Part shown: positions 22,912 through 64,000 of the stretch, piece after piece
Position numbering within the stretch: position 1 is the stretch's first letter
Layout: every line of letters begins with the position of its first letter
Assembly (NCBI GenBank): GCA_964635125.1
Contig: CAZWMQ010000002.1
Location: 47,591 to 111,590 of the forward strand
DNA: 64,000 bases
Source of the DNA: an uncultured Candidatus Saccharibacteria bacterium
GTDB lineage: Bacteria; Patescibacteriota; Minisyncoccia; Phycocordibacterales; UBA5272
Direction: 5' to 3'
Notes under the pieces: generated by a model
Seen by the model: only the letters and a program-made list of their open reading frames with translations
Databases searched by the model: none
What the model was told of the DNA's origin: nothing
Program-made: the position numbers and the translations under genes

Positions 22912-22946
<35 letters not shown>

Positions 22947-23520
22947 CATTGTCAATGAAATTCCACCTCCTCACTTACACTTAACATATACTTAGGGACC
23001 TTAATTTTAGATCTGGGCTGTTTCCCTTTTGACCACCGGAGCTTCGCCCCCGGAGTCTTACTGCTAGACTATTAAACTTTGGTATTCGGAGTTTGATAGG
23101 TATTGCCGTATTTCTACTAGTCAAGACCTTCCAGTGCTCTACCCCCAAAGCGAACATCTAACGCTATTCCTATAAATATTTCGACGAGAACCAGCTATTA
23201 CCAAGTTCGATTAGCTTTTCACTCCAACCCACAAGTCATCCAAAAGAGTCGCACGACTTACTAGTTCGGGCCTCCACTTATCTTTCGACAAGCTTCGCCC
23301 TGCTCATGGGTAGCTCACCTGGCTTCGGGTCTTTATTATTCAACTATTATTTCGCGCTATTCACACTCGCTTTCGCTTATGACTCCATCACTTTATACGA
23401 CTTAGTCAGCTGAATAATAAAACTCGTTGGCTCATTCTTCAATAGGCACGCAGTCGAGGTGCAAGCACCTCTCCTACTCTTTGTAAACATATGGTTTCAG
23501 TTCTATTTCACTCCCCTCCC

Positions 23521-23564
<44 letters not shown>

Positions 23565-24454
23565 ACTCAAGGAATATTTAGCCTTACCGGTTAGTTCCGG
23601 CAGATTCACCCGAGCTATTCGTGTCTCGAGTTACTCAGGATAAGAGATAAAAAAGAGTTAAATATTTCGAATACGGGACTATCACCCTCTTTGGTGCTAC
23701 TTTCCAATAGCTTATACTATAAATAACTTTTGTAACTTTCCTAGATAATTCTACATCTCTTCCCTACAACCAACTTAGTATTACTACTAAGAATTTGGGC
23801 TTCTCTGTTTTCGCTCGCCGCTACTTGCAGAATAACATTGTTTTCTTTTCCTGTGGGTACTGAAATGTTTTACTTCCCCACGTACGCTTCTAAAGATATG
23901 CTCCCTAGATTCCAAGACTTTACTCTTGGAGAGTTTCCTCATTCAGATATCTTCGGATCGAAGGTTAAAAGGCACCTCCCCGAAGCTTATCGCAGCCTAA
24001 TCACGTCTTTCATCGCTTCCTTGAACCAAGGCATCCACCTTATGCTCTTATTTCCTATTAGGAAATATATTTACCATCTTTATTTTTAACACCGCTGTCA
24101 AAAATAAATATTATTTTTATACAGTGTCTATATTATTCTCATAATATAGACTTACCTTTATTTTCACATCTATATACATTGCCTGAAAAGACCCCAAGAT
24201 ATTTGGGATATCAAATTGTGCAATGCTATAGGATTCTATTGACAAATAACTTGTCTAAATTTTTGAAAATAAAAACCGCTTTTTAAGCGGCGACTAAAAA
24301 CACTTTTTAGAAGCTGCTTAATTTTTCTGTTTTAAATTCAACATATTTAGGTCTTTCAATATTAACATAATGGAAATAAAAATGCAAACCAATCTGATAT
24401 CTAATTGCTAGTATCTAGTTTCTAGTTAAAATAACCTTTCTAGATAACTATAGG

Positions 24455-26037: not shown

Positions 26038-29000
26038 TTAGTATACATTGTAAGTAGTTAACAAAGTACCAAGTTTAGCTGTTGAAGAAGCATAATTGGT
26101 TACTCCGTCAATCACATCAGACCATTTGAAATTGGCTGCTGCACCGACTGTTACATCGTATGTCTGTGAATTTGATGATCCGTTGACAATGTCTCCATAG
26201 ATATCAAAGTTTACAGATTGTCCAGCTCCAATTCTGTATCCAGAAGCGAAGGTTGTGCTAGTTGCAGAAGCTACTCCAGAAATTGTAGTAACATCTGTAC
26301 CATTAGCTTTAACTACTACATTGCTTGCTGATACTGAGAAAGGAAGAACGAACATTGTTACATCTCCATGAGAATCTGCGGCAACATTAATTGTTCCGAT
26401 CTTAACTCCAGTAGTTGTTCCAGAATTTACTGAAACTCCACTTGTAGTCTTCTTTACAGTAGGTAGAGAAGCTACTAAAGTCATAGTATTAGCGGCAACT
26501 GAAGGGGTAATTGTAGTCTGAGTTCCACCAGCAGTATATTTAACTGAAGTTAAAGTAATTGTGCTAGTTGATCCTGAATCTACACCTCCTTGATTAGTTT
26601 GAGTAACAGCTGAGTAAGTAATAGCTACTGGAATATTTAATCCTGAAGCACCTGAAGTAACTCCTAGATTAATTCCGTAGAAATTAGCTACACCGCTAAT
26701 TACATTAGCTGTAACACCATTGATAGTTAGAGATTGAACTCCGGTACCACCAACTGTAAATCCTAAGTCATTTAGAGTTGCATTACCATTAGTTGATACT
26801 ACGTTGTAAGTAGCTACAGCATTAACTGTAGATCCTCCAATTAAATATCGATTTCCAAGAGTAGAAGCAGTTACTAAAGTAGGAGTTCCAACTGAGACAG
26901 AAGCTGCTGTCATAGTAGGAGCAGTTGCTGATTGAGTATTAGTTACAGAAGAAACAGTTCCTCTGTAGCTTACAGTTGAAGAAGCAATAATAGTATATCC
27001 ATTAGTAATCTCAAGAGTATCTACCCAGACTTCAATAGTCTTAGTAGTTCCAGCAGGAACAGTGTAATTTACTGAGAAATTATTAGTTCCAGTTACTGGG
27101 ACAATAGTTTGTGAACCATCAGTAATTCTTAAGTTAGTATAATCTACTCCAGCTGAAGCAGTTCCACCTAAGATTACATTAATGTTAGTAACATTAATAG
27201 CCTCAGATGAACCAGCTTGTAGAGCAAATGATCCAATCTTAACTCCTGTTTGATTCTTAGAAATATTAGCTGCAGTAAATCCAGCAGTTGCTCCGTAAGC
27301 AACATTACCAGAATTAATAGACAAAGATTGTCCAGTAGCTGTAGGAACGGATATTGTGTTGTATGAATATTGTCCTTGAGCTAAGTTAGAGCTTGATGAA
27401 GCTACATCAACTCTAAGAGTACCTGAAGTAATATTTGCATTACCACTATTTACTAAGTCACCTTTAACTTCAACGACTGCTGAAGATCCAGCAGGAATAA
27501 TTAAGTTAGAACCTAAGTTGAAAGTAGTGTTAGATCCAAGAGTTAATTGAACTCCGGAAGAAACAGCTGCTCCATTGACATAGACAGTAACATTATTAAT
27601 CGCTGTAGTTGTAGGACTTAGAGCTACAGTAGCTGTAGCATTAAGGGTAAGATTTTGAACTTTCACATCTTCTCCATAAGCATAGAACTTATAAGAAGCT
27701 AAAGTTTGATTAACTGAGCCACCAACTACTGTTGAAGCAGCGAAGGCTGAGTTTTGTGAAATAGTTAAAGATCCACCACTAATAGTAATTGTTCCAGCTT
27801 GTCCAGATGAACCTGTGAAGGCAGCTGAAGACTTAGTAACAGTTACATTAGCTCCATATAATTGTGAATCTTGTAATGCTACATCTCCAGCATTCTCAAG
27901 AGTTACATAGAAATTTCTACTTGATCCCTTAACAATATCAGCTCTAACATCAAAAGTGTGAGAACCAGTATTAAGTGATAAAGGACTCATTGAGTAGAAA
28001 GTTACATAACCATTAGCTGAGAAAGCTGAGGCATTAGCAAATTGAACTCCATCTACATATAATTTAACATTAGCTAATGAATCTACCGGAGCAGATCCAA
28101 TCATTCGGAAAGTCATAGAACCTAGATTAACAGCTCTAGTTCCAACATTAAGTGCTGAAGACCAGACTGTCGCTCCAGTTACACCTGCATTCATAGAAGT
28201 AGAAGCAGGAGTGATTGTTCCGAAATCAGCTGTAGCTAAAGTAGCTGAAGCAATTGGAAGAGCAGGACCGTTTAATCCTGAAACCATTGCCATAGAGCTA
28301 CCCATAACTGTATAACCAGTTAAAGATACTCCAACTGATTGTCCTGATGAAGATCCAGCAATATCAGCTAGAACAGAGACTGTTCTTGAGCCAGATACTG
28401 CAAATATTCCAGAAGCATTGTTAAATGTGATTGTGCCGTCAGTTAAAACTGAAGCAGCATCAGTTAATCTAGCACCAGTCATAGCATCATATAAATATAC
28501 ATTAGATAATGTACTATTATTAGATACACCTAATCTAGATAACTTAACACTAACTACAGAACCATTACCTGTGAAGACAAAGTCAGCTAATTTAGCTCTA
28601 GCTGAACCTTGTACTAATACATTACTTGGTTGTACTGAAGAAAGTGAAACACTAACCGCTCCTGAAGTAGGATTAGTTGGGTTAGTAGGATTAGTTGGAT
28701 TGGTTGGACCAGAACAACTATTCATAGCTCCTCTTGATGAAGAACCAAAGAATCCTGTTCCTTGAGCTAATCCCCAAGGTGCTAATACTGTTGCAGCATT
28801 AGCATTTTGCCAAGCAATAACGGCAGCCTTAGTTAAGCCACCGAAATATGAAGTCTCCATTCCTGGAGATCCAGCACCACTTGCAGCAATTTGAAATCCT
28901 TTAGAGTTAAGAGCTTGTTGTAAAGCTTTAACATCTGCTCCAGAAGCTCCTAGAGAAAGATTTCTTGTGAATTGATAGCAAGCTGGAGCTGATTGAGCTG

Positions 29001-29073
29001 AAGCAAGCATTGCTCCAGCTAAAGCACCCGCTGAGATAGCAGCTAAAGCTGCTGTCTTTAATTTGAAATTCAT
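26038..29073 (-). CDS. S-layer-like large surface protein: signal peptide, peptidoglycan-binding domain, (PTN)4 linker and a long A/S/T/G/V/N-rich beta-repeat region
   Basis: Signal peptide 'MNFKLKTAALAAISAGALAGAMLASA'. PG_binding_1-like 'LSLGASGADVKALQQALNSKGFQIAASGAGSPGMETSYFGGLTKAAVIAWQ'. Codon usage differs from its neighbours (GC-richer third positions), consistent with very high expression. A leader hairpin and promoter lie upstream. Confidence 0.7.
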   Translation of the reverse strand: MNFKLKTAALAAISAGALAGAMLASAQSAPACYQFTRNLSLGASGADVKALQQALNSKGFQIAASGAGSPGMETSYFGGLTKAAVIAWQNANAATVLAPWGLAQGTGFFGSSSRGAMNSCSGPTNPTNPTNPTNPTSGAVSVSLSSVQPSNVLVQGSARAKLADFVFTGNGSVVSVKLSRLGVSNNSTLSNVYLYDAMTGARLTDAASVLTDGTITFNNASGIFAVSGSRTVSVLADIAGSSSGQSVGVSLTGYTVMGSSMAMVSGLNGPALPIASATLATADFGTITPASTSMNAGVTGATVWSSALNVGTRAVNLGSMTFRMIGSAPVDSLANVKLYVDGVQFANASAFSANGYVTFYSMSPLSLNTGSHTFDVRADIVKGSSRNFYVTLENAGDVALQDSQLYGANVTVTKSSAAFTGSSGQAGTITISGGSLTISQNSAFAASTVVGGSVNQTLASYKFYAYGEDVKVQNLTLNATATVALSPTTTAINNVTVYVNGAAVSSGVQLTLGSNTTFNLGSNLIIPAGSSAVVEVKGDLVNSGNANITSGTLRVDVASSSSNLAQGQYSYNTISVPTATGQSLSINSGNVAYGATAGFTAANISKNQTGVKIGSFALQAGSSEAINVTNINVILGGTASAGVDYTNLRITDGSQTIVPVTGTNNFSVNYTVPAGTTKTIEVWVDTLEITNGYTIIASSTVSYRGTVSSVTNTQSATAPTMTAASVSVGTPTLVTASTLGNRYLIGGSTVNAVATYNVVSTNGNATLNDLGFTVGGTGVQSLTINGVTANVISGVANFYGINLGVTSGASGLNIPVAITYSAVTQTNQGGVDSGSTSTITLTSVKYTAGGTQTTITPSVAANTMTLVASLPTVKKTTSGVSVNSGTTTGVKIGTINVAADSHGDVTMFVLPFSVSASNVVVKANGTDVTTISGVASATSTTFASGYRIGAGQSVNFDIYGDIVNGSSNSQTYDVTVGAAANFKWSDVIDGVTNYASSTAKLGTLLTTYNVY

Positions 29074-39151: not shown

Positions 39152-39898
39152 ATGCAAAATCTCAAAAGAGACTTCTTGAAAAGACTCAATTCTCTTAAAG
39201 AAGAGAAGGCTAATACTTATCTTTCTGTAAAAGGTCTTTCTAAAAATGATCTAAAGTTAATCTCTAAAGATGAGGAGAAGTTAATGAATTTGTGGAGGGA
39301 GACTCCTGAGGAATTATGTTCTCCCATAATTAAAAGAATGAGGATCAACAACAAAGAAAAATTAATTAAATATGCCAAAAATGAGAAGAAGTTGATGAAT
39401 TTGTTGAGGAATACTACTGAAGAACTCCGCCCTCCTATAATTAAAACCATTCTTAAATTGATCTCTAAAGATGAGGAAAAGTTGATGAATTTGTGGAGGA
39501 AGACTCCTAACGAACTCCGTCCTCCTATAATTAAGACCGTTCTTAAATTGATCTCTAAAGATGAGGAGAAGTTAATGAATTTGTGGAGGGAGACTCCTAA
39601 CGAACTCTGCCCTCCTATAATTAAAACCATTCTTAAATTGATCTCTAAAGATGAGGAGAAGTTGATGAATTTGTGGAGGAATACCTCTGACGAACTCTGC
39701 CCTCCTATAATTAAGGCCATTCTTAAATTGATCTCTAAAGATGAGGAGAAGTTAATGAATTTGTGGGGGGAGACTCCTAACGAACTCTGCCCTCCTATCA
39801 CTGAGAAGATTGTGGAATTATTAATGAGCTATGATGATAATAAATTCAAAATGGCCGTTGAAAAAATTGATGCGAATATTTTAAAAGCTATTGTCTAA
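39152..39898 (+). CDS. tandem-repeat protein with six ~30-aa repeats 'LKLISKDEEKLMNLWRETPNELCPPIIKTI' (90-bp DNA repeats); unknown function
   Basis: Near-identical 90-bp repeats at 39230-39790. Own promoter-like TTGACA at ~39083 and a terminator at 39913-39944. Confidence 0.6.
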   Translation: MQNLKRDFLKRLNSLKEEKANTYLSVKGLSKNDLKLISKDEEKLMNLWRETPEELCSPIIKRMRINNKEKLIKYAKNEKKLMNLLRNTTEELRPPIIKTILKLISKDEEKLMNLWRKTPNELRPPIIKTVLKLISKDEEKLMNLWRETPNELCPPIIKTILKLISKDEEKLMNLWRNTSDELCPPIIKAILKLISKDEEKLMNLWGETPNELCPPITEKIVELLMSYDDNKFKMAVEKIDANILKAIV

Positions 39899-39944: not shown

Positions 39945-40023
39945 TTAAATCGAAGATCTCTCTGATTATCTTAAAAAGTTGAAGTAAATTTAATTTTGTG
40001 TTAATATATTTAAATTAATTTAT

Positions 40024-40263
40024 ATGGTCAATACAAATATTAAAGTTCATAAAAAGGAAAAAGACAATGCGATGTCACTATTACATAAATTTTCTAAAAA
40101 AGTTCAAGAAAGTGGTGTTTTACCTAAGGTAAGAAGCAAAAGATATAATGAAAGAGATATGTCTAAAGCTAAAATTAAAAAAGGTAAATTAAAAAAATTA
40201 GTCTCAGCTAATCGATATTCTGAATTAAGGAGACTTGGAAAATTAGTAAAAAAGTCTAAATAA
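40024..40263 (+). CDS. rpsU: 30S ribosomal protein S21
   Basis: 'LHKFSKKVQESGVLPKVRSKRYNER...KAKIKKGKLKK' is S21-like. Confidence 0.7.
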   Translation: MVNTNIKVHKKEKDNAMSLLHKFSKKVQESGVLPKVRSKRYNERDMSKAKIKKGKLKKLVSANRYSELRRLGKLVKKSK

Positions 40264-40665
40264 ATGCGAGCAGAAAAAAAGAATCTTGTTATTTCTAAAA
40301 CTGGTAAGCCAATTGATAAAAAAATACAGATATCTATTTCAAAAATTAAAAATGAAATTTTAAAAGATGAATATATTTTAGAAATTAATTTTATCACTCC
40401 AAAAGTTTCTCAAAAGTTAAACATTAAATACAGAAACAAACATTATATTCCAAATATTTTGTCTTTCCCTCTTTCTAAAACAGAGGGGCAAATATTTCTT
40501 TGTCCATCAGTTATTAAAAAAGAAGCTAAGGGCTTTAATTTATCCTGTGATAATTTTCTTATATTATTAATTACTCACGGTTGCTTACATTTAAAAGGAA
40601 TGGAACACGGCAAAAAAATGGAAACTCTTGAAAATGAAATCTCTAAAAAATATATGTTAAAATAA
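40264..40665 (+). CDS. ybeY: rRNA maturation RNase YbeY
   Basis: 'LLITHGCLHLKGMEHG' H-x-x-x-H...H zinc motif. Confidence 0.75.
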   Translation: MRAEKKNLVISKTGKPIDKKIQISISKIKNEILKDEYILEINFITPKVSQKLNIKYRNKHYIPNILSFPLSKTEGQIFLCPSVIKKEAKGFNLSCDNFLILLITHGCLHLKGMEHGKKMETLENEISKKYMLK

Positions 40666-40669
40666 TCAA

Positions 40670-41845
40670 ATGAGTAAAGATAAATCTCATTTAATAATTG
40701 GAGTAGATCTTGGAAGCAATACTATAAAAATGTGTGCTGTTCTACATTCAGAATATGAAGAAGAGACACCTAGAGTCTTAGGTATTGTCGAAGCTGAAAC
40801 TGAATCTATCTATAAAGGAGACATTATTGATGAAAATAATTTAATAAAAGATATAGAAAAAGTCTTCAATAAATTTCCAGATAAAATATTTAATAAAAAA
40901 TCACCTCTTTTTATAATAGGATTAAATGCTGATGGTATTTCAAGTATTTCTAATAGTAGTCATATCTTAAATAGTAATATAAATAAAGAAGTTACTATCA
41001 ATGACTTAAATCGGCTGGAAAAAGAAGCCTCGATACCCGTGGCTATGATTAAAAATAAAAAAATAATCTCAACTATACCCTTGAGATACAAATTAGATCA
41101 GAACGAAATCCAAGGTAATCCTTTAGGTTTAATCAGTAAAAAAATCGAAGGTAAATTTTTATTTATCTATTCCCCTTCAAATTACATTGATAAGATTGAA
41201 AATATCTTTAATACTCTTAAATTAAAAATCGAAAACTTAGAGATCGGTATTATTGCTGAGAGCATTCCACTTTTAAATAGACGGCAAAAAAATGCTGGGA
41301 CAGCCTTAATTAATTTAGGTTATTCTACTACTAGTATTTTAGTCTTTGAAAATGGAAAGCTAATTTTTGCCTCAGTATTGGGCTTTGGTAGTGATGACAT
41401 AACCAAAGATATTGCTTTAGGGCTACAAATATCTTTAGAGGAAGCTGAAAATATTAAATTAGATCAAACTTTATATTCTTATTCTAAAAGAAAGCTTGAA
41501 GATATAATTGAAGCTAGAATTGAGTATATCTGTGAAAAAATAAATCAAGAGTTAGAAAAAATAAATCGTAAAGAATTATTACCCGGTGGAATAGTTTTGT
41601 CTGGAGGTGGGAGTAAATTAAACGATATAGATTCTCTTTTTAAAAAGTATCTTAAATTACCGATTAAACTATCAGAAAAAGAAATTGCAGAATTTTCTAA
41701 TCAGCAAATTCAAGATCCAACTTATGCTAGAGTATATGGTCTTACTTTTCTAACTCATACTATGAACCATAATTATCATCTAGATAAATATGTTAAAAAC
41801 TTTTTTAGAAAAATTTTAAATTTCTTTAAAAAATTATCTCCTTAA
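40670..41845 (+). CDS. ftsA: cell division protein FtsA (actin-like ATPase)
   Basis: 'LIIGVDLGSNTIKMCAV', 'LINLGYSTTSILVFENGKLI' and 'GIVLSGGGSKL'. Lies immediately upstream of ftsZ. Confidence 0.8.
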   Translation: MSKDKSHLIIGVDLGSNTIKMCAVLHSEYEEETPRVLGIVEAETESIYKGDIIDENNLIKDIEKVFNKFPDKIFNKKSPLFIIGLNADGISSISNSSHILNSNINKEVTINDLNRLEKEASIPVAMIKNKKIISTIPLRYKLDQNEIQGNPLGLISKKIEGKFLFIYSPSNYIDKIENIFNTLKLKIENLEIGIIAESIPLLNRRQKNAGTALINLGYSTTSILVFENGKLIFASVLGFGSDDITKDIALGLQISLEEAENIKLDQTLYSYSKRKLEDIIEARIEYICEKINQELEKINRKELLPGGIVLSGGGSKLNDIDSLFKKYLKLPIKLSEKEIAEFSNQQIQDPTYARVYGLTFLTHTMNHNYHLDKYVKNFFRKILNFFKKLSP

Positions 41846-49532: not shown

Positions 49533-50945
49533 TTATTTCTCTAACTTAATTCCTAACTCTTTTAAATGTTTCTGACTGGTCTTCGCTGGAGTTTGAATTA
49601 ATAAATCCTTTCCTTCCCCAGTCTTAGGAAAAGCAATTACTTCGCGAATATTAGGTTCGTTCAATAATATCATCATTAATCTATCAAATCCTCAAGCAAT
49701 ACCCCCGTGAGGTGGAGTCCCCGATTCAAAAGCTCTTAACATATGACCGAAATTATTCTCAATACTTTCCTCATTATAACCAAGTATTTCTAAAACATTT
49801 CGCAAGTCATTAGCTTTATGATTACGAATTGATCCTCCTCCGATCTCATATCCATTTAAGATCAAATCATATTGTTGAGTGTAAATATCAGCAATATTTT
49901 TCTTATTATTAACATCTTTTAATTGATTCTCTTTAGGACGAGAAAATGGGTTGTGAGTAAAAGTCCATTCTCCTTCAGCCTCTGGATCATCACTCTCAGC
50001 AGTTTTCTTAAAAAATGGGAAATCTACCACTCAAGCTAAAGCTAATAAATCTTTATCATTTTTATCTTTTCTTAGATCTGGTCTATCATTACCATATTTC
50101 TCCATGGCTTCAACATAAGTTAAGATTGGGAATGGTTTATCTTGAATCTTTTTCTCGGGAAATACATTTTCAATTAACTTTATAATTAATTCTTCGTTTA
50201 ACTTGCGAATTTCTGCTTCACTCATAAAACTAACCTCCATATCTAGCTGAGTGAATTCTGGTTGTCTATCTCCACGAGTATCTTCGTCTCGCATACATTT
50301 AGCAAATTGAAAATATCTCTCTAACCCTCCAGCCATTAATAATTGTTTATATTGTTGCGGTGATTGTGGTAGGGCATAAAATGTCCCTGGTGAGAGACGT
50401 GCTGGTACAATATAAGATCTTGCTCCTTCTGGAGTTGGATTAGTAAGAACTGGAGTTTCTACTTCTACAAAGTCCATTTTTAACAATTCACTTCTTAAGA
50501 AATTTTGAGCTTTAGATCTCATTCTTAGATTATGTTGAATTCTAGCTCGTCGCATATCTAAATACTTCTTCTCCAACCTAACTTCTTCATTAATCTCTTT
50601 ACCATCAGTAGATATATCAAAGGCGGGGGTCTCGGCTTCATTTAAAACCTTAATCTCTAAAATTTCTAATTCTAATTCACCATTAATGATGCCAACTTTA
50701 ATATTCTTCTCCGGGCGAGAATTAACTTTAGCTTTTATTTCTACTACTCATTCTGGTCTTAATTTCTCAGCTATAACTTTAGCTTCAGTCTGATTAGGTA
50801 AGACTACTCCTTGAACTTTACCACTATAGTCTCGTATATCTAAAAATATCAATTTGCCCTGATCTCTTCTTACATCTATTCAGCCTTTGACTAATACTTC
50901 TTCATTCAAATGTTTATTTAAATCTTTAATTAAAGTCCTTTCCAT
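49533..50945 (-). CDS. aspS: aspartate--tRNA ligase (4 in-frame TGA, all at conserved Trp/aromatic positions)
   Basis: TGA at 50880-82 gives 'VLVKG-W-IDVRRDQGKLIFLDIRD' (E. coli 'CGWVNRRRD'). TGA at 50748-50 gives 'LRPE-W-VVEI'. TGA at 50031-33 gives 'LLALA-W-VVDFPFF' (E. coli 'FLWVIDFPMF'). TGA at 49692-94 gives 'PPHGGIA-W-GFDRLMMILL'. Motif 2 'FQFAKCMRDEDTRGDRQPEFTQLD' is present. Confidence 0.85.
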
Positions 50946-53313: not shown

Positions 53314-56300
53314 TTAATTCTGAGATAATGCTTCGGATGTAGTGTTATCGTTTAATAGAATATTATTAACAAATCCCCTAGTTGACCAGAAAAAGTTTCC
53401 AGTTCCAACTCCATTTGTAATTCCTACATTAGTTAAGATTGATGGATTAGCTTCTTGATAAGTTTTCAAAGCATTCCAAGTCATATATCCGAAATAATTA
53501 GTCTCTTGCCCTAATGAACCAGGACCAGTTTCAGCTAATTTAAATCCTTTTAGATTTAAGAACTTTTGAAGAGCTTTGACTTCGTCTCCTATTGAACCTA
53601 ATTTTAGATTTTGGGTAAATTGATAAGCTGTCGCTCCTAATACTGACCCATTTCCTCCATTTGTAGTTGTTTGAGGTGGAATAAATATTGAGCCTCCACT
53701 AAAAGTCTGAGGAGTTGAAGTTGGATTACCGCCGCCGCCGCCGCCATTTTCCTCTACTCCTGTAATTGATATGTTTGTGCTAGTAGAGCTAGTTGCTCCA
53801 TCATTATCAGCTACAGTAAGTACTACATTATAATTCCCATTACTAGTATAAGTATGGCTTGGATTTAATCCTAAAGCACTATTACCATCTCCGAAATCCC
53901 AATTTAAATCAGAAATTGTTCCGTCTGTATCAGTTGAAGTATTTGTGAATAGTATAGTTGGATCATTAGAATTATCTACAATGAAACTCGCAATAGGGCT
54001 ATTGTTCTCATCGCCTTCGCCTTCTCCATCTCCACCATGATTACTGGTAACATTTACATCATAAGTTGATTCGTTACTCTTGTTGTTAGCTTTATCGACA
54101 GCAATTAGATGTATAGTATAATCGCCACTTTCTAAATCAGAAACATCAAATCCTCCTAACTCAACCGAACTAGTTGAGCTTCCAAAATTTGTCGCTCCAT
54201 TTGCCCAAGTAGTTACACAATTACTATTTCTAGTTCCTCCGATTTCTGTACTATCATTTTTCTTAGTCAACCAACAATAATAATAATTTAAATTAATGTC
54301 AGTTATATACCCAGAAAAAGCTTCTACATCGTCTGTTTGAGTAGCTGAGGTAATTTGAGCAACTGGTTTAATATTATCAACAGTTATCTTCCATAGATCG
54401 CTCCAAACACTTTGATTATTAGAACTATCAACGGCTTTGACTCTCCACCAATAATTAGTATCACTAACATTGGTAGCAGTCTTACTGGTGGTGCTATATT
54501 CTCCATGGAATCTTAAACTAGAAGCTGTGGAATTGTTATAACTTTCATAAATATAATGATCAACATCATCTGAACTATCACTCCAAACTTGAGTTATGCT
54601 TGCTCCATTAACTACGGAATTATTAGCTGGGCTCACTAAAAGTGGTTTAGCTGGGGGATTAGTATCAGGCATAGTCAACACAAAACTACTAGTCCAACCA
54701 GGGTTATAAGTATTTCCAGCCATATCAACTACATTAGCATTAGCACTATAAGTTCCTGATCCACATAGAGAACTAGTTGCATTTACATTATATATAGAAG
54801 AAATATCGTATTGTTTAGATCAAGATGAGCTTGTGCTAAATGGAGAAGTTATAAGATTAAACAAAAACCCTCCGCAACGAGCATTTATATTACTATTAAG
54901 TAATTGAAGATATACTCTATTCAAAGCTAAATTATCAGTTGAAGTTCCACTAACTGTAAATTTACCATTAACTACCGGACTAACACTAATAGTTGTAAAA
55001 GGAATAGTGTGATCGTAATAATAATGAACTGATGGACTCCAACCTCCGATGTTACCGGCCTTATCAATTCCTCTTACCCAGATAGTAACCCCTCCTTCTT
55101 CATTTGGGCCTGGTTGATGTCCTCTTGAAGTTCCGTTAACATCTCGACATCCTACCCATTTACCATTGATAGTAGTGGTTGCTGAACAAGTTGAGTCTCC
55201 AAAAGTATGTCCGTCATCATATTGGTAAGCGACTTGATAATGATCAATCTGTTCAGGATTTCCATTTATATCTTTGGTGATTGGATTCCAAGAATCATTA
55301 ATTGGGGTAATCCTAAACCATTGTCTTTCTCCTGGAGTTAAGATAGTGGTTATAGCTGGAGCAGCTGTATCAGAATTAAGTACTAAATTGTCTCGTACAG
55401 TTGACCCATTTCCTGCTTGATCAAATGGTACAGCAGTTACAGTAAATTGTCCCCCATTAACTACACCAAGTTCTTGTAATTTCTGAGCTGGGAATGTATA
55501 GTTAAATGTTCCGCTAGCATTACCTTTAACTATACCGAGAGCATAATGATAACCATAATCTGGATGAGTATTATGATAATAATAATTATAATTATAACTA
55601 TACCCATTACCAGGAGAAAGATACAACATAATATGATCGATACCGCTCAAATTATCAGAATATGTCCCCGTAACGGTTAAGTCATTATTGGTACTAACAT
55701 GACTCCCGGCATTTGGTCAAGTAAAAGTAACAATTGGGTCAGTGATATCATAATTAATTATAGAAGAAGTAGACCAGTCTGAAGTTTTATCATTATCTCC
55801 AACCGATCTAACTCTAAATACTCAAGGAGCTTCAATTCCTTTTGGAGTTGTTCCAAAAGCTTGATTTGGAATGCTGGTTATATTACCTAAATTTTCTGGG
55901 CTAGATCAAGTCAATCCACCATCTTTCGAATAAGAGTAATCGTAACTAGCGATTGGTTCTGGAGTAGTAGTTGGATTAGATCAGCTTGGGGTGATTAGAT
56001 CAACATTAGTTGAAGTAATAGAATGATTGGTACTATTTAGTCAAACTAAGTTGATTGGGGCAGATGGTGCTGGTGTTTCAAATGTATATTCTTTACACCC
56101 GGCTACTATTTTAGTAATTGTGTAATCGCCTAAGACCCCGCTACCAAGACTATATCCAATCGCTAAAACTTTAGCATTTGGAAATCTATTTAACCATTCT
56201 TCTGCTGTTCCAAACCAATTACTTCCATTTCCTCCTCCGGTATTTGGAGCATTATCTTTTACAAATTGCTGAGCACTATTTGATAGCCACCAATTATTTC

Positions 56301-58323
56301 CATAAATAGTTTCTCCGACTAAGATTCCGTCGGGGGTTCCGTCATTATTAAAATCTACAACTAATTGAGAGCTCGGAGCAATACTTCCAGAATTAGTTAT
56401 ATAATTAATAGTATCTGAAATATTATTAGTTCCTAGATCTTTTAGATCAAAATTAGTAACGAAATACCCTGCAGCCTTATCTGTAGAGGTGTTTCCTTCA
56501 GTCCAAATATGTAACCCGTTAGAAACAATCTGATTATGCCCTGTGGCTCTAGTCTCTGATAAATCCCATGTTGATAAATCAGTTGTTACAACTTGAGTAG
56601 GATTAGTACAGACATTTATTAATATTGGTTCGAAGTCATACTCATCATTAACGGTTGTAGTAATAACATGAAAATCATCAACATTCCCTGTAAAATTTGT
56701 CCAACCACTCCCTGCCTTAAATCCAACGGCTTGAAGTGTTCCGAGATTAATTCCTATATTTGGATAAAGAGCTATTAATTGAGAAAATGTACATGGATTA
56801 GATTGAGAACAATTATTATTGAATAAAGTTGATGCTTTGGATAGCCATCACTTACCATTTACAGCATTCCAAGTCTGCCATTGATTATCAGTAACTGTAC
56901 CATTTAAATATGGTTCATATACTAATCGACCTTGCCATCCTAAATTACTATCAGTAACATCTTTTGTTATATTTAACTGAATAGATGGAGCAATCGTATT
57001 ATTACCACTTTGGACATAAGTTGAATAATCTATTGTAGAAATGTCTGATAACTTTGTTCCACCATATTGTGGAAGTGCAACTAAATATCCCTCTCCTGAA
57101 GTAGCGACGGATATTTCTAAACTCCCAGATCCTAATGGTGCAGTAGCTGGTCCATTAACATAGTCTGCACTTCCGCCATTTCCATTATCATCGATTGGAG
57201 TTCATCCATGTAAATCTCCAGGTTTAACTATAATCATATTTAGACTTGGGGTAGTCGTCCCGCTTCCAGATCCTCCACCACCACCGCTAGAAATTGGGTC
57301 TGTAGTCTCAGTAAGTGTCGAACTAGTGGCAAAGTTAGTCCCGTCAGTCGCTACTACAAACATGGCATAGCTAGTAGAAGCTGTTAAACCAGTAATAGCT
57401 GAGCTTGTAGAAGTAGTAGAACCATAAGAAGCTCCATCCTTAAATACTTCGTAAGAAGTAGCTCCAGATACATCATTCCAATGAAGTACAAAAGAAGTCG
57501 AAGTTAAATTAGACACATATAAGTTCGGAGCAAATAAAGTCGAACTTGAAGTAGTAGCTGCCGCTAAAGTAGTCTCTTCTAAAGAAGCAATTCCTGATAC
57601 ATTTCCAGCATTATCAAATGCCGCCACAGTTAAAATATAAGTAGAAAAAGCAGTTAATCCAGAAATTGTAAAGTTAGTGTTGGTTGTAGTTGCAATAGTT
57701 GTGCTAGCCGAGCTTTGTAATTTATAACCTACAGAATAATAAGCTATACCGCTTCCAGTATCTATTGAAGGATCTCAAGTTAATCCGATAGAATTACTAG
57801 TAACAGAAGTCGTAGCGAAATTAGCTGGTGTAGATGGGGCAGTATTGTCTACAGTAGAAGTAGAAATTAAATCTCCAGTTAAAACAACATTAGAAATTAT
57901 TGCATTATCAAGATTAGAAGGATTCCCTAACAATCTAAAAACTAAACTGAAATTACTATTAGAAGAAGTAGCATTATATGGTATAGATATACTTATATGC
58001 CCGACTTCACTAGAAGAAGTAGTTCCGGTCTCACCTTCGATACTACCAAGAGATTGAACCTTAGCCGCACCAGTATCAATATTATATCCATAATCTAAAA
58101 AATCTCCTGGTTCTAAACTACGAATATCATAATCGAAAGATAAATTTAAATTATTATAAAGACTAGTATCGGTAGCAATCTTTTTAAAACCGGCTGGGCC
58201 AGTTATAGTTGATGATGCTGTTTGATTAATTAAAGTTGTTCCACCTGTTGCTAAAGCATAATATAAAGATATACCGGCAACAGCAGTAAGAACAATTCCA
58301 AAAATTGATAATATTTTTTTCAT
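53314..58323 (-). CDS. giant (~1669 aa) secreted surface protein with signal peptide, FN3, PKD and a C-terminal peptidoglycan-binding domain; at least 10 in-frame TGA
   Basis: Track ORFs 57775-58323, 57202-57627, 54820-55650 and 53314-54723 share one frame across TGA. The 57775-77 and 54820-22 junctions were checked codon by codon. Between 55651 and 57201 the - strand carries many TGA codons. FN3 'FAPNLYVSNLTSTSFVLHWNDVSGATSYEVF'. PKD 'DLNWDFGDGNS'. PG-binding 'LKLGSIGDEVKALQKFLNLKGFKLAETGPGSLGQETNYFGYMTWNALKTYQ'. TAA stop at 53314-16. Confidence 0.55.
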
Positions 58324-58593
58324 ATTTTTATTTTTAAATTTTTATGAAGTTTTTAAAACGAAATAATTCGCTAATAAATTAATAATAAAGAAAGAACAAC
58401 ACAACACTTAATTTATTAAAGATAAATAAGCATTTACCAACTTATACATAGACAATCTACATATTATTTTAAGTATATAACCATCAAAATCTAATGTCAA
58501 TATAGAAATAGTTTTACTTTTACTAAAAATATGTTAAAATAAATCTAAATTCTTAAGTCTTGGTTCTTGCAACTTGAAACTTGACTCTTGAAT

Positions 58594-60201: not shown

Positions 60202-63200
60202 TTATTGAGTAGGAGTTGAGGTAGCTTCTGATGTGGGTGTTGATTCTGGGGTTATTTGTGGTTCAGTTGTTGGAGTTGAGTCAGGTGTTGAAGTTGATTC
60301 TGATGTAGTTTCAGTAGAGTTCGAAAAATTGTCATCTATAGTATTTGAGGTAGTTGAGCTATTGTCTGAATTAGTCTCAGTAGTTGAAGATCCATTACTA
60401 ATATCAGGAGTAGTCGTTCCGTTATCTGTATTTGTTTCTAAAGTGGTTGAGCCATTATTATCTGAGCTTGAAGAAAACTCGCTTCCTCCACTAGTATTGG
60501 TATTGCTATTCGAAGAAGAATTTTGAGTATTTAATAATTCTTGTAATTGATTAGCATTAGTACAAACTTGCTGCCCATTTTCATTAATCAAACAAAGTTT
60601 CTTCGTCTCAATAAGATCAGAATATAATTTTACAAAATATCCTCTGATAGCAGAAATTCTTAATACTACCAGGTTAGTTAGTAATTCATACCCGGATGAT
60701 AATCTATTATGAATTGTTTGTAAAACATCTATATTATTTTCATTGGTTATAAGATCTATGGTGTTAGTAGCATCACTATTAATTGTTAAAAGAGAATCGC
60801 TACCATTTAAAGTATTGAAAGTTGATTTTAAAGAAGCTACAATATATGGAGTGAATCCTCCATAATTGACTCCTTTCAATCCTCCTGGGTCAGTAGAAAC
60901 CAAATCCGAAAATAATTGTTCTACTTCTTGGGCTATAAATCCAGTATGCTTTGAGCTTGAGCTAGACTCTATTTTCCAATTATAACTAACAGGGTTTAAA
61001 ATTAAAAGTTTATCTAAGACCGATAAGGAGCTAGTAGCTATATTATTATTTAAAACAAACTGAACTTCACTGTTATTTAAAATTGCCGAAGTATTAACTA
61101 AATCTATATTCTTCTTTAAATTAATATCGGAAGAACAAGTCAAAGAAGTTGTATTTGGACTAATCGTACAATTCCCACTACTATTAGTAAATCTAGCGAC
61201 TACACCTGAAATACTACTATTACCAACATCTAAAGTGTATTGTGGAGTAGATGTAGCAATACCTATATAATCACTACTCAAATCCCCATAAATAGTATTC
61301 CCAATATTCAATTGATTATTAGAGGTAGAAGCAGTAACATCTACATTATAACCAATTAAGATATTGTCATGACCGGTAGTGATAGAGTCTCCAGCTTGAT
61401 AACCAATAGCTGTGTTATTGTATCCAGTGCTATTATTATATAAAGCACTCAATCCAATACCAGAGTTACTTCCTCCAGTAGTATTATTTCTAAGAGTTCC
61501 TCGACCAACTGCCACATTAGATTGTCCAGAAGTAGTATTTTGAAGAGCATAAGATCCAAGTCCAACATTGTCACTAGAACTTGTGGCGCTATTAATAGCT
61601 TGATAACCGATAGCCACATTATCTAATCCAGTTAAGTTATTCTGTAAAGCATAAGTACCTAAAGCCAGGTTTCCACTTCCACTAGTGTTAGCAGCTAAAG
61701 AGTTAACTCCAAGTCCAACATTATCATTTCCATCAATATTAAATCCTAAAGCATCATTACCTATAGCTATATTATTAGTACCTATAGTATTAAAATCTAG
61801 AGCATATGGTCCGATGGCGACATTATTTTGAGAACTAGTAGAGTGATTAAGAGCTAGGTGACCAATGGCTATGTTGTAGCTTCCAGTAGTCATACTCTGC
61901 ATAGCATCAAATCCTATGGCTGTATTTCTATTACCACTAGTTATATTTTGTAAAGATTCAGATCCTACTCCTGTATTATATTGTCCGGAGGCTGATGAAT
62001 TACCTGAGTTACCAAAGAAATAGCTGTTTAAGGTTGTGGAGGCAAAGACGAGAGAAGTTCCATTTAAAGTAACTTGACTTGTAGTACTAACTATCACTCC
62101 TGTTTCATTTAACCAAGAAGCTGTGGTGCCATTAGTATATAAGAATTTACCAGCATTGCCAGATTGAGATGGAAGACCTCCACCTGAAACTGTCGCCCAA
62201 GCTACCACTCCACTTCCATTAGTTTGTAAGACTTGTCCGTTAGTTCCATCAGTATTAGGTAAAGTGTAGGCTCCGATCTTTAAGGTTCCAGTGAAGCTAC
62301 CGGTTCCGGCAACAGTTAGGGTTTCATTTAGAGTAGAAGTTCCAATCCCAATCTTTCCACCAGAAATAGCTGTGGTGGTTGGATTACCAGAAGTAGTTGA
62401 ATATAATCCTGTTCCAAATAATATTCCACCAATGTTAAGAGAGTTAGTGGTTGCATTAGGTAAAGAAACATTGGTTCCAATAATAATATTGTTATTACCT
62501 ATGTTATTAGAAGTAAAAGACATACCAGCTTGATAACCAATCAGATTAGAGTATTGAGCATTATCTGCTCCATATCCAGCAGATGTCCCAATGAAGTTTG
62601 AATTATCTGCATCAGTTGCACTATATCCAGCATTATAACCAAGGAAGTTAGCATAAGAAGTTCCATTTGCACTATATCCAGCAGAATCACCAATGAAGTT
62701 AGATTCATCTGAACTGCTAGCATTATGTCCAGCATCTGTCCCGATAAAGTTAGAATATGGCGAACTAGTAGCATTCTGCCCAGCACTTGTCCCAATGAAG
62801 TTAGAATCATTCGAATTGCCAGCATTCATACCAGTATTTAAACCAAAGAAGTTAGAGTCTCCGGAATTAGCTGAATAATTACCGGCTTGATGACCGAAGA
62901 AGTTAGAATAACTTGAATCATGAGCATTTTGTCCAGACCAACCAATATAGTTAGAGATAGAGTTATAAGCTTGATAACCAGCATAATAACCAATACCTAC
63001 TGCTCCAGCTGAATTATAAGCACCATATCCAGCACTTAGACCAAAGAAGTTAGTGGCTCAAGAACCATTAGCTCCATAACCAGCATTTTCTCCTAAGAAA
63101 TTAGATTCGTGAGTACCAGTAGCATTTTGTCCAGCTCCATCTCCTAAGAATACTGATTGATAAGCATCTGATCCGTTTCCAGCATTATTACCTAAGAATA

Positions 63201-64000
63201 TATTTCTACCAGTATAAGTAGTTGATCCTACTCCAGCATTAAGTCCTGGAGTATATATAGTATTTAAAGTACTAGAAGCAATTGGAGAAGAAATAGTAAT
63301 TACTCCAGAACCATTGTCAGAGATTGTTGTTCCATATTGTCCGGTTAGATTAAGTAAGGTAGATGAGCCATTGGTTACTCCATTTGTTTTTAGAGTGATT
63401 GAGCCCCCTCCCACTGTCTGCCAAGATCCATCATCTCTTAAGAACTTAGTACCGTCTGGAGTTCCAGTAATAGATAATTTAGAGATAGCAATAGAGCCGG
63501 CTAACATTGAATTAGTTACTTTACTTGCTCCAATAGTAGTGACAATAGATGTAGTTCCTGAACCACTAACATCACCTGAGAGAGTAATAGTTTGATTACC
63601 AGTTAAATAATCAGTTCCGGGAGTGGCTATTGCTAAAGTGTTTGCTCCAGTTCTCTTAATTAGTCCGTTAGAAGATAATCCTGTAATAGTATCTTGAGTA
63701 ATAGAGCCACCTAATGGAATAGCTACTCCAGCAATGGTAATTGTGGCATTAGCTAAGTTAGCATTAGTAATACCAGCAGTTCCTGATAGATTAGCATTAG
63801 TTAGTCCTGAGATAGAACCACCTAAGGTTAGGTTTCCTGAAGTAGCAACTGTTCCGGTTAAAGTAAGACCGGAGACAGTTCCAGTTCCTCCTACTGAAGT
63901 AACTGTTCCTACTGAGACATTACCTGATCCTAAGAGAGAGTTACTATTAACTGTCTTAATATTAGTTCCTGAGACTAAGGTGTCTTGTTTTCCATTAATC
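60202..64000 (-). CDS. giant fibre-like surface protein, 5'-truncated by the window edge, with YadA-head-like 14-residue repeats, a beta-rich shaft, a peptidase-S74 intramolecular-chaperone (auto-cleaving) domain and an S/T/P/E-rich tail; multiple in-frame TGA
   Basis: The frame continues upstream of the track M at 62829 through TGA codons, e.g. 63058-60, into track ORF 63058-63507 and beyond 64000. 14-mer repeats 'xSNFIGxxAGxxAx'. S74 motifs 'SSDINLKKNIDLV', 'PVSYNWK', 'GFIAQEVEQLFSDLV' and 'LKGVNYGGFTPYIVASLK'. Confidence 0.6.

What the first reader, a model, noticed from the sequence alone, without database searches (positions are those of the whole stretch)
53314..58323. 1669-aa surface protein only recoverable by reading at least 10 UGA codons; FN3 + PKD + C-terminal PG-binding anchor
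The track shows four fragments plus a 1.5-kb segment with no ORF at all (55651-57201). With UGA read as Trp, the region is one continuous gene from a signal peptide to a peptidoglycan-binding domain. The UGA density is much higher here than in housekeeping genes. That could reflect Trp-rich carbohydrate-binding modules or relaxed selection, and it would make this gene untranslatable after transfer to a standard-code host. Standard-code gene callers would miss the gene entirely.
Basis: partly seen in the sequence, partly recalled or inferred. Interest (0 to 1): 0.55.

Follow-up and report, generated by a model that had tools for sequence, protein, structure and literature searches.

The report
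Surface adhesin gene with UGA-Trp codons
This is a real, intact gene for a very large cell-wall-anchored surface protein of an ultra-small (CPR/Paceibacteria) bacterium that reads the stop codon UGA as tryptophan; the nine UGAs are ordinary Trp codons, and UGA-as-tryptophan was first reported for this bacterial phylum only in 2026.

Summary
Window 53314-58323 (minus strand) is one 1,669-codon gene ending in TAA. It has nine in-frame TGA codons (not ten or more) and no internal TAA/TAG (chance about 1e-45). UGA means Trp, not Gly. Standard-code homologs have W at the testable sites. TGA and TGG interchange at the same columns in three syntenic orthologs from other metagenomes (29 TGA/TGG pairs, 17 TGA/TGA). 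AspRS shows the same at four sites.

The host is a Paceibacteria (Patescibacteria) bacterium. Its sister clade (88% RecA identity) still uses TGA as a stop.

The protein reads: signal peptide, 2 FN3, two tandem CBM-like beta-sandwich domains of a family with no Pfam model, FN3/Ig-like repeats, PKD, C-terminal PG_binding_1. It is most likely a glycan-binding adhesin.

The high UGA count reflects length and Trp richness (2.28% vs 0.78%). UGA's share of Trp codons (24%) matches the other genes (17%, p=0.34), and AspRS has a higher UGA density.

UGA-to-Trp in Patescibacteria was published in April 2026 (family JAKLIH01, PMC13092985). Whether this lineage is that family could not be tested. A tRNA-Trp with a CCA anticodon lies 33 nt outside the window. 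No tRNA(UCA) or RF2 information is available.

The parts
53314..58323 (-). Complete CDS: 1,669 codons plus TAA stop (53314-53316); ATG at 58321-58323
   Evidence: translation; no TAA/TAG, P about 1e-45; syntenic orthologs
58472..58500 (-). Promoter-like site TTGACA-17-TATACT (11 of 12 matches), about 150 nt upstream of the ATG
   Evidence: This is a consensus match only; function is inferred
58246..58323 (-). N-terminal signal-peptide-like or TM segment, aa 1-26 (MKKILSIFGIVLTAVAGISLYYALAT)
   Evidence: Read from the sequence. No signal-peptide predictor was available
57844..58236 (-). Small N-terminal domain (aa ~30-160) with no family match
   Evidence: no Pfam hit; orthologs align here at 37-38% identity
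57331..57834 (-). Two FN3 domains (aa 164-241 and 265-331). UGA183 is the conserved strand-B Trp of the first
   Evidence: fn3 46.8 bits vs cutoff 25; W in 180 of 181 homologs at aa 183
56614..57255 (-). D1: CBM-like beta-sandwich domain (aa ~357-570) with no Pfam model. Contains UGA374 and UGA492
56074..56601 (-). D2: second CBM-like beta-sandwich domain (aa ~575-750), a distant homolog of D1
54034..56073 (-). Run of FN3-like and Ig-like (weak Big_13) domains, aa ~751-1430. Contains UGA761, 781, 806, 834, 869 and 1168
   Evidence: Big_13 weak hit; orthologs P0001-P0003 align continuously over aa 751-1425 at 47% identity; codon table
53776..54006 (-). PKD domain (aa 1440-1516)
   Evidence: PKD_4 65.1 bits, E=6e-18
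53359..53616 (-). C-terminal PG_binding_1-type peptidoglycan-binding module (aa ~1570-1655), preceded by a Gly-rich linker
   Evidence: 20.7 bits, below cutoff; 48% identity, E=4e-24 to the N-terminal module of the 26038-29073 protein; that module scores 30.9 bits; the same module in P0126 scores 29.7 bits
53250..53278 (-). 11-bp hairpin followed by TTTGTGTT on the gene's strand, 36 nt after the stop. Likely an intrinsic terminator
   Evidence: The scan flagged it on the + strand; the arms are symmetric and the T-run on the minus strand was read directly
57775..57777 (-). UGA codon, aa 183
   Evidence: TGG in L086 and L088, TGA in L087
57202..57204 (-). UGA codon, aa 374
   Evidence: W in 20 of 20 homologs
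56848..56850 (-). UGA codon, aa 492
   Evidence: W in 12 of 13 homologs
56041..56043 (-). UGA codon, aa 761
   Evidence: TGG in all three orthologs
55981..55983 (-). UGA codon, aa 781
   Evidence: TGA conserved in all three orthologs
55906..55908 (-). UGA codon, aa 806
   Evidence: TGA conserved in all three orthologs
55822..55824 (-). UGA codon, aa 834
   Evidence: TGA conserved in all three orthologs
55717..55719 (-). UGA codon, aa 869 (a variable position)
   Evidence: ACT (Thr) in the three orthologs
54820..54822 (-). UGA codon, aa 1168
   Evidence: TGA conserved in all three orthologs

Best explanation
The region is one functional gene of a Paceibacteria (Patescibacteria/CPR) bacterium whose genetic code assigns UGA to tryptophan (table 4). 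The nine UGAs are ordinary Trp codons, used at the same rate per Trp as elsewhere in the genome. The gene holds many of them because it is long and Trp-rich.

The product is a secreted, modular protein of about 175 kDa. It is held on the cell wall by a C-terminal PG_binding_1 module. It projects a stalk of FN3, Ig-like and PKD domains, and it carries two tandem CBM-like beta-sandwich domains.

Most likely it acts as a glycan-binding adhesin, attaching this small, probably episymbiotic cell to a host cell surface or a polysaccharide.

Shown: gene continuity, UGA=Trp, domain architecture, fold of D1 and D2, and synteny.
Inferred: secretion, wall anchoring, glycan binding, the adhesin role, and how UGA is decoded (tRNA and RF2 not seen).
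For: Continuity: no TAA/TAG in 1,669 codons.

UGA=Trp:
- At the four AspRS UGA sites, 80 relatives have W in 79/79, 68/80, 80/80 and 64/80, and never G.
- In the target, aa 183, 374 and 492 align to W in 180/181, 20/20 and 12/13 homologs.
- W374 is invariant and W492 nearly invariant in the 12 homolog segments of the D1 alignment.
- Codon-level alignment with three syntenic orthologs plus the neighbouring CAP, AspRS and Kef genes gives 29 TGA/TGG and 17 TGA/TGA pairs.
- 14 of 48 genes in the window carry in-frame TGA, and all 48 end in TAA or TAG.

Lineage:
- AspRS relatives are Paceibacteria/Nomurabacteria MAGs.
- The window and L087 form a clade sister to L001-L008.
- Sister genomes L091 and L213 have 0 in-frame TGA vs 20 and 22 TGG, and use TGA stops. 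One is ybeY, whose TGA overlaps the ftsA ATG. The window's ybeY ends in TAA.

Protein:
- Pfam fn3, PKD and PG_binding_1.
- D1 and D2 models have pLDDT 86 and 92 and match CBM folds. D1 and D2 are homologous.
- The D2 family co-occurs with PG_binding_1, CW_binding_2, DUF642, SpaA and Big_13 in other secreted proteins, with no catalytic domain in 7 of 8 sampled; P0122 has a cutinase-family match with no significant domain stretch.
- The window encodes FtsW/RodA and an M23 peptidase, so peptidoglycan is present.

Published precedent for UGA-to-Trp in this phylum: PMC13092985.
Against: - No tRNA(UCA) and no information on RF2 in any sequence held. The only tRNA-Trp seen, 33 nt outside the window, has a CCA anticodon.
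- No proteomic or transcript evidence.
- Four of the nine UGA sites (781, 806, 834, 1168) are supported only by conserved TGA in orthologs that use the same code. One site (869) is Thr in the orthologs.
- The signal peptide was judged by eye only.
Confidence: 0.9

Rival explanations
1. UGA encodes glycine (code 25), as in the other recoded Patescibacteria (Gracilibacteria/Absconditabacteria/JAEDAM01). The merged protein would then carry Gly at the nine sites.
For: Code 25 is the long-known recoding in this phylum (PMC8629427; PMC13293708). The genome is low-GC CPR.
Against: There is no Gly at any UGA-aligned column. AspRS sites show W or aromatic residues in 291 of 319 aligned residues. Target sites 183, 374 and 492 show W in 212 of 215. 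TGA interchanges with TGG, not GGN, in orthologs. The organism belongs to Paceibacteria, not Gracilibacteria.
Confidence: 0.01
2. The region is a decaying pseudogene, or several separate genes. The TGAs are real stops accumulated under relaxed selection.
For: Table 11 gives four ORFs and a 1.5-kb gap. One UGA (aa 869) is at a non-conserved position.
Against: Only TGA interrupts the frame and never TAA/TAG (P about 1e-45). Essential genes (AspRS, LepB, FtsK, S1, TrxR) are 'interrupted' in the same way. Orthologs of 1,409-1,712 aa are intact and syntenic in three other metagenomes. The UGAs fall at invariant Trp residues of folded domains. UGA's share of Trp codons equals the background.
Confidence: 0.02
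3. UGA is ambiguous. It is read as Trp by near-cognate tRNA-Trp(CCA) while RF2 is still present. Long UGA-rich genes such as this one would then be translated inefficiently, and expression would be tuned by readthrough.
For: - The only tRNA-Trp found has a CCA anticodon, with U11-A24 (the state created by the Hirsh G24A UGA-suppressor mutation) and a weak G27.U43 top pair in the anticodon stem (Hirsh and 4-bp-stem background in PMC13092985).
- UGG is still about 80% of Trp codons.
- PMC13092985 found tRNA(UCA) in only 2 of 4 JAKLIH01 MAGs.
Against: - Essential single-copy genes carry up to four UGAs (AspRS), which is hard to sustain with competing termination.
- No gene in the window ends in TGA.
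- The published Patescibacteria case lacks RF2.
- From my own knowledge, A24 also occurs in standard-code Bacillus tRNA-Trp, so it is not diagnostic.
- The rest of the genome, where a tRNA(UCA) could lie, was not available.
Confidence: 0.07

Closest known systems
UGA-to-Trp reassignment in Patescibacteriota family JAKLIH01 (order UBA6257, class Minisyncoccia); PMC13092985, NAR April 2026
   Same: Same phylum and class. UGA is read as Trp, no UGA stops, UAA dominates (82-88% there; 37 of 48 = 77% here), a tRNA-Trp(CCA) with a formally 5-bp anticodon stem is present, and UGA usage is modest.
   Different: Membership is untested. None of the sister-clade genomes found here is among that paper's 27 listed relatives, and several are labelled Nomurabacteria. 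tRNA(UCA) and RF2 status are unknown here. That paper does not describe this gene.
Code 4 in Mycoplasmatales/Entomoplasmatales and insect endosymbionts (Hodgkinia, Nasuia, Zinderia, Stammera)
   Same: UGA is Trp in a small, low-GC, host-dependent genome, which fits the codon-capture setting (PMC8629427).
   Different: Here UGG remains the major Trp codon (about 80%). The organism has a peptidoglycan wall (FtsW, M23, PG_binding_1 proteins). The standard-code sister clade is very close (88% RecA identity).
Code 25 (UGA-to-Gly) in Gracilibacteria/Absconditabacteria
   Same: Same phylum and the same codon reassigned.
   Different: A different amino acid. Gly is never found at the aligned columns.
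Wall-anchored modular adhesins with FN3/Ig-like/PKD stalks and beta-sandwich carbohydrate-binding modules (CBM4/11/22-type folds)
   Same: Signal peptide, repeated Ig-superfamily stalk domains, a non-covalent wall anchor (PG_binding_1) and jelly-roll domains with conserved aromatic residues.
   Different: D1 and D2 belong to no Pfam or CAZy-recognisable family (at most 15% identity to solved CBMs). No catalytic domain is attached. The ligand is unknown.

Membership tests
Bacterial genetic code 4 (UGA = Trp) | In-frame UGA at positions where standard-code homologs have conserved Trp | tested here: met
   AspRS: W at 79/79, 68/80, 80/80 and 64/80. Target aa 183, 374 and 492: W in 180/181, 20/20 and 12/13. 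Invariant W in the D1 alignment.
Bacterial genetic code 4 (UGA = Trp) | UGA and UGG interchange synonymously between orthologs | tested here: met
   29 TGA/TGG and 17 TGA/TGA pairs across five syntenic genes.
Bacterial genetic code 4 (UGA = Trp) | UGA not used as a stop codon | tested here: met
   All 48 gene models end in TAA (37) or TAG (11). ybeY ends in TAA here but in TGA in the sister genome. Caveat: the models were built with TAA/TAG as the only stops. One TGA lies 5 codons before the TAA of the HAD gene.
Bacterial genetic code 4 (UGA = Trp) | A tRNA-Trp able to read UGA (normally anticodon UCA) | tested here: inconclusive
   No tRNA(UCA) in the window or any held locus of the clade. 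Only tRNA-Trp(CCA) was found, 33 nt outside the window. The rest of the genome is not available. The metagenome scan returned mostly tRNA-Sec.
Bacterial genetic code 4 (UGA = Trp) | [quoted passage not shown] | not testable with these tools
   No release-factor gene in the 64-kb window. The source contig could not be retrieved beyond the window.
GTDB family JAKLIH01 (published UGA-to-Trp Patescibacteria) | Phylogenomic placement inside the family, or identity with one of GCA_028702045.1, GCA_028691405.1, GCA_022709715.1 or GCA_022705625.1 | not testable with these tools
   RecA P0271 (100% identical) is on a 113,232-nt NCBI contig, but its accession was never shown. No JAKLIH01 sequence was obtainable. 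The supplement holds no tRNA sequences for the family.
GTDB family JAKLIH01 (published UGA-to-Trp Patescibacteria) | Genome traits reported for the family: 0% UGA stops, UAA 82-88%, 5-bp-stem tRNA-Trp(CCA) | tested here: met
   0 of 48 TGA stops and 77% TAA. The tRNA-Trp(CCA) anticodon stem has 5 pairs, counting G27.U43. These traits are consistent but not diagnostic.
Genetic code 25 (UGA = Gly) | UGA at conserved Gly columns | tested here: not met
   No Gly at any UGA-aligned column. UGA never pairs with GGN except at one poorly aligned column.
Pfam fn3 (PF00041) | Score above the gathering threshold | tested here: met
   46.8 bits vs 25, two stretches (aa 164-241 and 265-331).
Pfam PKD (PF18911/PF00801) | Score above the gathering threshold | tested here: met
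   65.1 bits vs 27 and 41.7 vs 23.5, aa 1440-1516.
Pfam PG_binding_1 (PF01471) | Score above the gathering threshold | tested here: inconclusive
   The direct score is 20.7 bits vs 23. The module is 48% identical (E=4e-24) to the N-terminal module of the 26038-29073 protein, which scores 30.9 bits. The near-identical module of P0126 scores 29.7 bits.
Carbohydrate-binding modules (beta-sandwich CBMs, e.g. CBM4/11/22) | Beta-jelly-roll fold similar to solved CBMs | tested here: met
Carbohydrate-binding modules (beta-sandwich CBMs, e.g. CBM4/11/22) | Sequence membership in a defined CBM family, and demonstrated glycan binding | tested here: not met
   No Pfam hit over aa 350-750, and at most 15% identity to solved CBMs. 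Binding cannot be tested computationally.

The most novel reading that the evidence does not exclude
The window's lineage (with the Logan relatives L086-L088) is a second, independent UGA-to-Trp reassignment within Patescibacteria, distinct from JAKLIH01. It is caught very close to its standard-code sister clade (88% RecA, 80% AspRS identity). UGG is still about 80% of Trp codons. UGA is decoded without a cognate tRNA(UCA), by the tRNA-Trp(CCA) that carries the Hirsh-type U11-A24 pair and a weak G27.U43 stem top. That would be a natural early-stage, near-cognate route to codon capture in a walled bacterium.
Probability: 0.12. Interest if true: 0.7.

Novelty: new member of a known kind. Interest (0 to 1): 0.35.

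Why it matters
In practice, table-11 annotation of this genome shatters this gene and 13 others in the window, including AspRS, FtsK, LepB and S1. That corrupts proteomes, completeness estimates and domain censuses for this lineage.

In biological terms, large wall-anchored proteins with glycan-binding-type modules are prime candidates for how ultra-small CPR cells attach to hosts. D1 and D2 define a widespread surface-protein domain family (more than 670 representatives) that has no Pfam model.

For code evolution, the locus offers a tight comparison. A recoded clade sits next to a standard-code sister clade. There are visible 'fossils': ybeY TGA changed to TAA, a TGA 5 codons before the TAA of a HAD gene, and a UGA-free glycosyltransferase island. 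UGA usage ranges from about 20% to 57% of Trp codons among close relatives. These are useful for studying how UGA is captured.

The reassignment itself is no longer new for the phylum (PMC13092985).

Tried and rejected
- Read the given coordinates on the + strand: 118 stops. The gene is on the minus strand.
- Code 25 (Gly): rejected.
- Pseudogene or relaxed selection: rejected.
- 'P0001-P0003 have W at the UGA sites' turned out to be partly circular, because those database proteins were themselves translated with code 4. I replaced it with the codon-level TGA/TGG test.
- 'The closest GTDB relatives lack TGA stops, so the whole clade is recoded': not significant (0/37 vs 9/108, p=0.11). It was then contradicted by L091 and L213, which have TGA stops and no in-frame TGA.
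- In-frame TGAs in L003 and L007: these were spurious shadow ORFs.
- BLASTP of D1 against D2: not significant (E=0.18). The profile-profile comparison was significant.
I modelled a 56%-identical homolog instead.
- Retrieving the source NCBI contig or its accession, to reach tRNA(UCA) and prfB and to test JAKLIH01 membership: only short Logan contigs were returned.
- The JAKLIH01 supplement holds no tRNA sequences.
- Metagenome scan for a tRNA with the same anticodon stem but UCA: 120+ hits, almost all tRNA-Sec from high-GC organisms, plus one phage-like tRNA array. Uninformative.
- The release factor next to RecA in L213 has a P-x-T motif, so it is RF1 and says nothing about RF2.
- No Rfam intron family explains the long 23S.


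Full report
**1. The observation**

The finding's coordinates hold a gene on the minus strand. Read from 58323 down to 53314, the frame has 1,669 sense codons and a TAA stop. It has nine in-frame TGA codons (aa 183, 374, 492, 761, 781, 806, 834, 869, 1168) and no internal TAA or TAG.

From the window's base composition, the chance of 1,669 codons free of TAA/TAG is about 1e-45. The other five frames of the same stretch carry 53-175 TAA/TAG.

Under table 11 the tool lists four ORFs: 57775-58323, 57202-57627, 54820-55650 and 53314-54723. Region 55651-57201 appears ORF-less because it consists of six TGA-bounded in-frame pieces (117, 268, 19, 24, 27 and 34 codons) with no usable ATG/GTG/TTG.

So the description is right, with two corrections: there are nine UGAs, not 'at least 10', and the strand is minus.

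**2. What UGA means here**

The window is bacterial chromosome at 30.6% GC. It carries 23S and 5S rRNA and tRNA-Glu, tRNA-Asp and two tRNA-Met. With TAA/TAG as the only stops, 48 gene models cover about 80% of the window. Fourteen of them carry in-frame TGA, 29 codons in all.

The usual recoding in this phylum is UGA=Gly, so I tested Trp against Gly directly.
- AspRS (49533-50945, four UGAs): 80 relatives from GTDB genomes have W at 79/79, 68/80, 80/80 and 64/80 at those columns. The rest are aromatic or small residues, and none is Gly.
- Target aa 183: the conserved FN3 Trp, W in 180 of 181 aligned homologs.
- Target aa 374 and 492: W in 20/20 and 12/13 homologs. In an alignment of 12 homolog segments drawn from JGI, NCBI and Logan proteins, whose codons I did not check individually, W374 is invariant and W492 is at least 90% conserved.

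One check exposed a circularity. The closest full-length homologs, P0001-P0003, come from Logan assemblies and had themselves been translated with code 4. Their genes carry 14-16 in-frame TGAs, all rendered as W.

I therefore aligned codons rather than residues across five syntenic genes (the big protein, CAP, AspRS, Kef, TrwB). TGA in one genome pairs with TGG in another 29 times and with TGA 17 times.

For the nine target sites:
- 183 and 761 are TGG in orthologs.
- 374 and 492 are W in outside homologs.
- 781, 806, 834 and 1168 are conserved TGA.
- 869 is a variable site (Thr in the orthologs).

UGA is therefore a Trp codon.

**3. Whose genome, and how far the recoding extends**

AspRS and RecA relatives are Paceibacteria/'Nomurabacteria'/Parcubacteria MAGs. 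In an AspRS neighbour-joining tree, the window groups with L087 (84.5% identity, also recoded). This pair is sister to a clade of GTDB species, L001-L008, at about 80% identity.

That sister clade uses the standard code.
- L091 (GCA_964538815.1, RecA 88%) has 0 in-frame TGA against 20 TGG in 17 genes, and two TGA stops. One is ybeY, whose TGA overlaps the ftsA ATG.
- L213 (GCA_009612875.1, RecA 85%) has 0 in-frame TGA against 22 TGG, and one TGA stop.
- In the window, ybeY ends in TAA, 4 nt before ftsA.

Recoded relatives occur in at least three unrelated sequencing runs (SRR27197493, DRR438454, SRR10831808). There UGA makes up 52-57% of Trp codons, against 18-24% in the window. The window's own genome occurs in SRR11845633, SRR11845634 and SRR11845619, and on a 113-kb NCBI contig.

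An earlier idea, that the closest GTDB relatives also avoid TGA stops, was not statistically supported (p=0.11). It was later contradicted by L091 and L213.

**4. Is the UGA density special?**

| | Target gene | Other genes |
|---|---|---|
| UGA per 1,000 codons | 5.4 | 1.3 (p=0.0013) |
| Trp content | 2.28% | 0.78% (odds ratio 3.0, p=1e-7) |
| UGA share of Trp codons | 9 of 38 = 24% | 20 of 120 = 17% (p=0.34) |

The per-codon excess is explained by the higher Trp content, because UGA's share of Trp codons is not different. AspRS, a housekeeping gene, has a higher UGA density (8.5 per 1,000), and S1 and CAP are similar.

The count therefore reflects gene length and Trp-rich domains. It does not reflect relaxed selection or a gene-specific codon preference. 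Intact syntenic orthologs also argue against decay.

**5. The protein**

Pfam finds:
- two FN3 domains (aa 164-241 and 265-331; 46.8 bits),
- a PKD domain (aa 1440-1516; 65.1 bits),
- weak Big_13,
- a sub-threshold PG_binding_1 (aa 1579-1626; 20.7 vs 23 bits).

The C-terminal module is 48% identical (E=4e-24) to the N-terminal module of another large secreted protein in the window (26038-29073). That module passes the Pfam cutoff at 30.9 bits. The same module in P0126 scores 29.7 bits. I therefore accept the peptidoglycan-binding assignment. The window also encodes FtsW/RodA and an M23 peptidase.

The unannotated aa 350-750 resolves into two domains.

The D1 and D2 profiles are homologous (hhalign 97.6%, E=2.7e-12).

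In eight other D2 proteins, the module travels with PG_binding_1, CW_binding_2, DUF642, a GH2 sugar-binding domain, CHB_HEX_C, SpaA, Big_13 and FN3. Seven of the eight show no catalytic domain; the exception, P0122, has a cutinase-family match (37.3 bits against a cutoff of 25.9) with no significant domain stretch.

P0126 combines D2 (73% identical) with the same C-terminal anchor but a different N-terminal part, which shows module shuffling.

The gene has a strong promoter-like site 150 nt upstream (TTGACA-17-TATACT). A hairpin with a T-run lies 36 nt past the stop. Synteny with the downstream CAP-domain gene, AspRS, Kef and the TrwB-like gene is conserved.

My reading is a secreted, wall-anchored protein with a long stalk that displays tandem glycan-binding-type modules, that is, an adhesin. 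Anchoring, binding and role are inferred.

**6. Decoding machinery**

Neither the window nor any held locus of the clade contains a tRNA(UCA) or a release-factor gene.

Logan contigs of the same organism show a tRNA-Trp just 33 nt beyond the window's left edge, and its anticodon is CCA. It has a U11-A24 D-stem pair and a 5-bp anticodon stem whose top pair is G27.U43.
- A24 is the state produced by the Hirsh G24A suppressor mutation.
- Weakened 27:43 pairs promote UGA reading by tRNA-Trp(CCA) (PMC13092985).
- From my own knowledge, A24 also occurs in standard-code Bacillus tRNA-Trp, so this is a lead and not a test.

A scan of JGI metagenomes for the same anticodon stem with UCA returned tRNA-Sec genes and a phage tRNA array.

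**7. What is known**

- The 2021 Codetta survey lists no CPR UGA-to-Trp lineage (PMC8629427).
- A May 2026 review of the phylum mentions only UGA-to-Gly (PMC13293708).
- An August 2026 paper counts four phyla with UGA-to-Trp and omits Patescibacteria (PMC13462651).
- PMC13092985 (NAR, April 2026) does report UGA-to-Trp in Patescibacteriota family JAKLIH01 (order UBA6257, class Minisyncoccia). It covers four MAGs with 0% UGA stops, tRNA(UCA) in two of four, no RF2, and a 5-bp-stem tRNA-Trp(CCA).

The window's traits fit that description. I could not obtain an accession or any JAKLIH01 sequence, so membership is untested. The sister-clade genomes found here are not among that paper's 27 listed relatives, and some are labelled Nomurabacteria. 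That hints at a separate lineage but does not test it.

**8. Verdict**

The extra claims are not supported: at least 10 UGAs, unusual UGA enrichment, relaxed selection, and invisibility to gene callers.

The gene is a new member of known kinds: a code-4 gene, and a modular wall-anchored adhesin. The code change behind it has published precedent in the phylum.

Remaining interest lies in three places:
- whether this is a second origin of the reassignment,
- how UGA is decoded,
- the uncharacterised D1/D2 surface-domain family.

Noticed in passing
L081:12279-12350 (33-104 nt beyond window position 1); also L082:4923-4996 and L083:3048-3121: A tRNA-Trp gene with a CCA anticodon lies just outside the window in contigs of the same organism. 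It has a U11-A24 D-stem pair (the Hirsh-suppressor state) and a G27.U43 top pair in the anticodon stem. No tRNA(UCA) was seen anywhere.
   Followed up: partly
window 978-12359: A twelve-gene glycosyltransferase/WavE/GDPD/NTP-transferase cluster has 35 TGG and no internal TGA (P=4.5e-4 given the rest of the window). Its GC3 is the same as elsewhere. It may be a recent import from a standard-code relative.
   Followed up: partly
window 10637-11263 (-): A HAD-hydrolase gene has a TGA five codons before its TAA. A public caller ended the protein at that TGA (203 aa). It looks like a former TGA stop that is now read through by 5 residues.
   Followed up: no
window 40264-40670; L091:12992-13393: ybeY ends in TAA, 4 nt before the ftsA ATG in the window. 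In the standard-code sister genome, the ybeY TGA overlaps the ftsA ATG (ATGA). This is a visible stop-codon replacement that accompanies the code change. The ORF at 40020-40424 (-) is a spurious shadow of ybeY.
   Followed up: yes
window 20289-24061 (-) and 19883-19990 (-): The 23S rRNA match spans 3,773 nt against a 2,925-nt model, so about 850 nt are inserted. No Rfam intron family was detected and no long ORF lies inside. 5S is adjacent, but no 16S lies upstream (the next gene is an M23 peptidase).
   Followed up: partly
window 39152-39898 (+): A 248-aa protein built from tandem repeats of about 33 aa (…KLISKDEEKLMNLWRETPNELCPPIIKTILKL…). Its GC3 is 0.42, against about 0.19 in every other gene.
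   Followed up: no
window 26038-29073 (-): A 1,011-aa Ala/Ser/Thr/Gly-rich secreted protein with an N-terminal PG_binding_1 domain (30.9 bits), paralogous to the target's C-terminal anchor. It has no UGA among its 5 Trp codons.
   Followed up: partly
window 60202-63507 (-): A 1,101-aa repeat-rich protein with a Peptidase_S74 (endosialidase intramolecular chaperone) domain, resembling a phage tail fibre. It has one UGA and is flanked by tRNA-Met, tRNA-Asp and tRNA-Met genes.
   Followed up: no
L005:2998-4401 (CAZZNF010000009.1, 24% GC): This AspRS nests inside the standard-code sister clade, yet has one in-frame TGA at a W/F column. A neighbouring gene appears to stop at TGA. It could be an error, ambiguous decoding, or another recoded lineage.
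   Followed up: partly
L086:696-2267, L087:658-2229, L088:3230-4801: In the recoded relatives, the gene upstream of the ortholog encodes a 523-aa BNR/sortilin-like protein with PG_binding_1 and 13 UGA against 4 UGG. It is absent from this position in the window, where tRNA genes and a zinc-ribbon membrane protein sit instead.
   Followed up: no
L187 (JGI metagenome contig, 34% GC): A phage-like array of 11 tRNA genes plus a tmRNA, including a tRNA with a UCA anticodon that was called tRNA-SeC. It is unrelated to the window.
   Followed up: no
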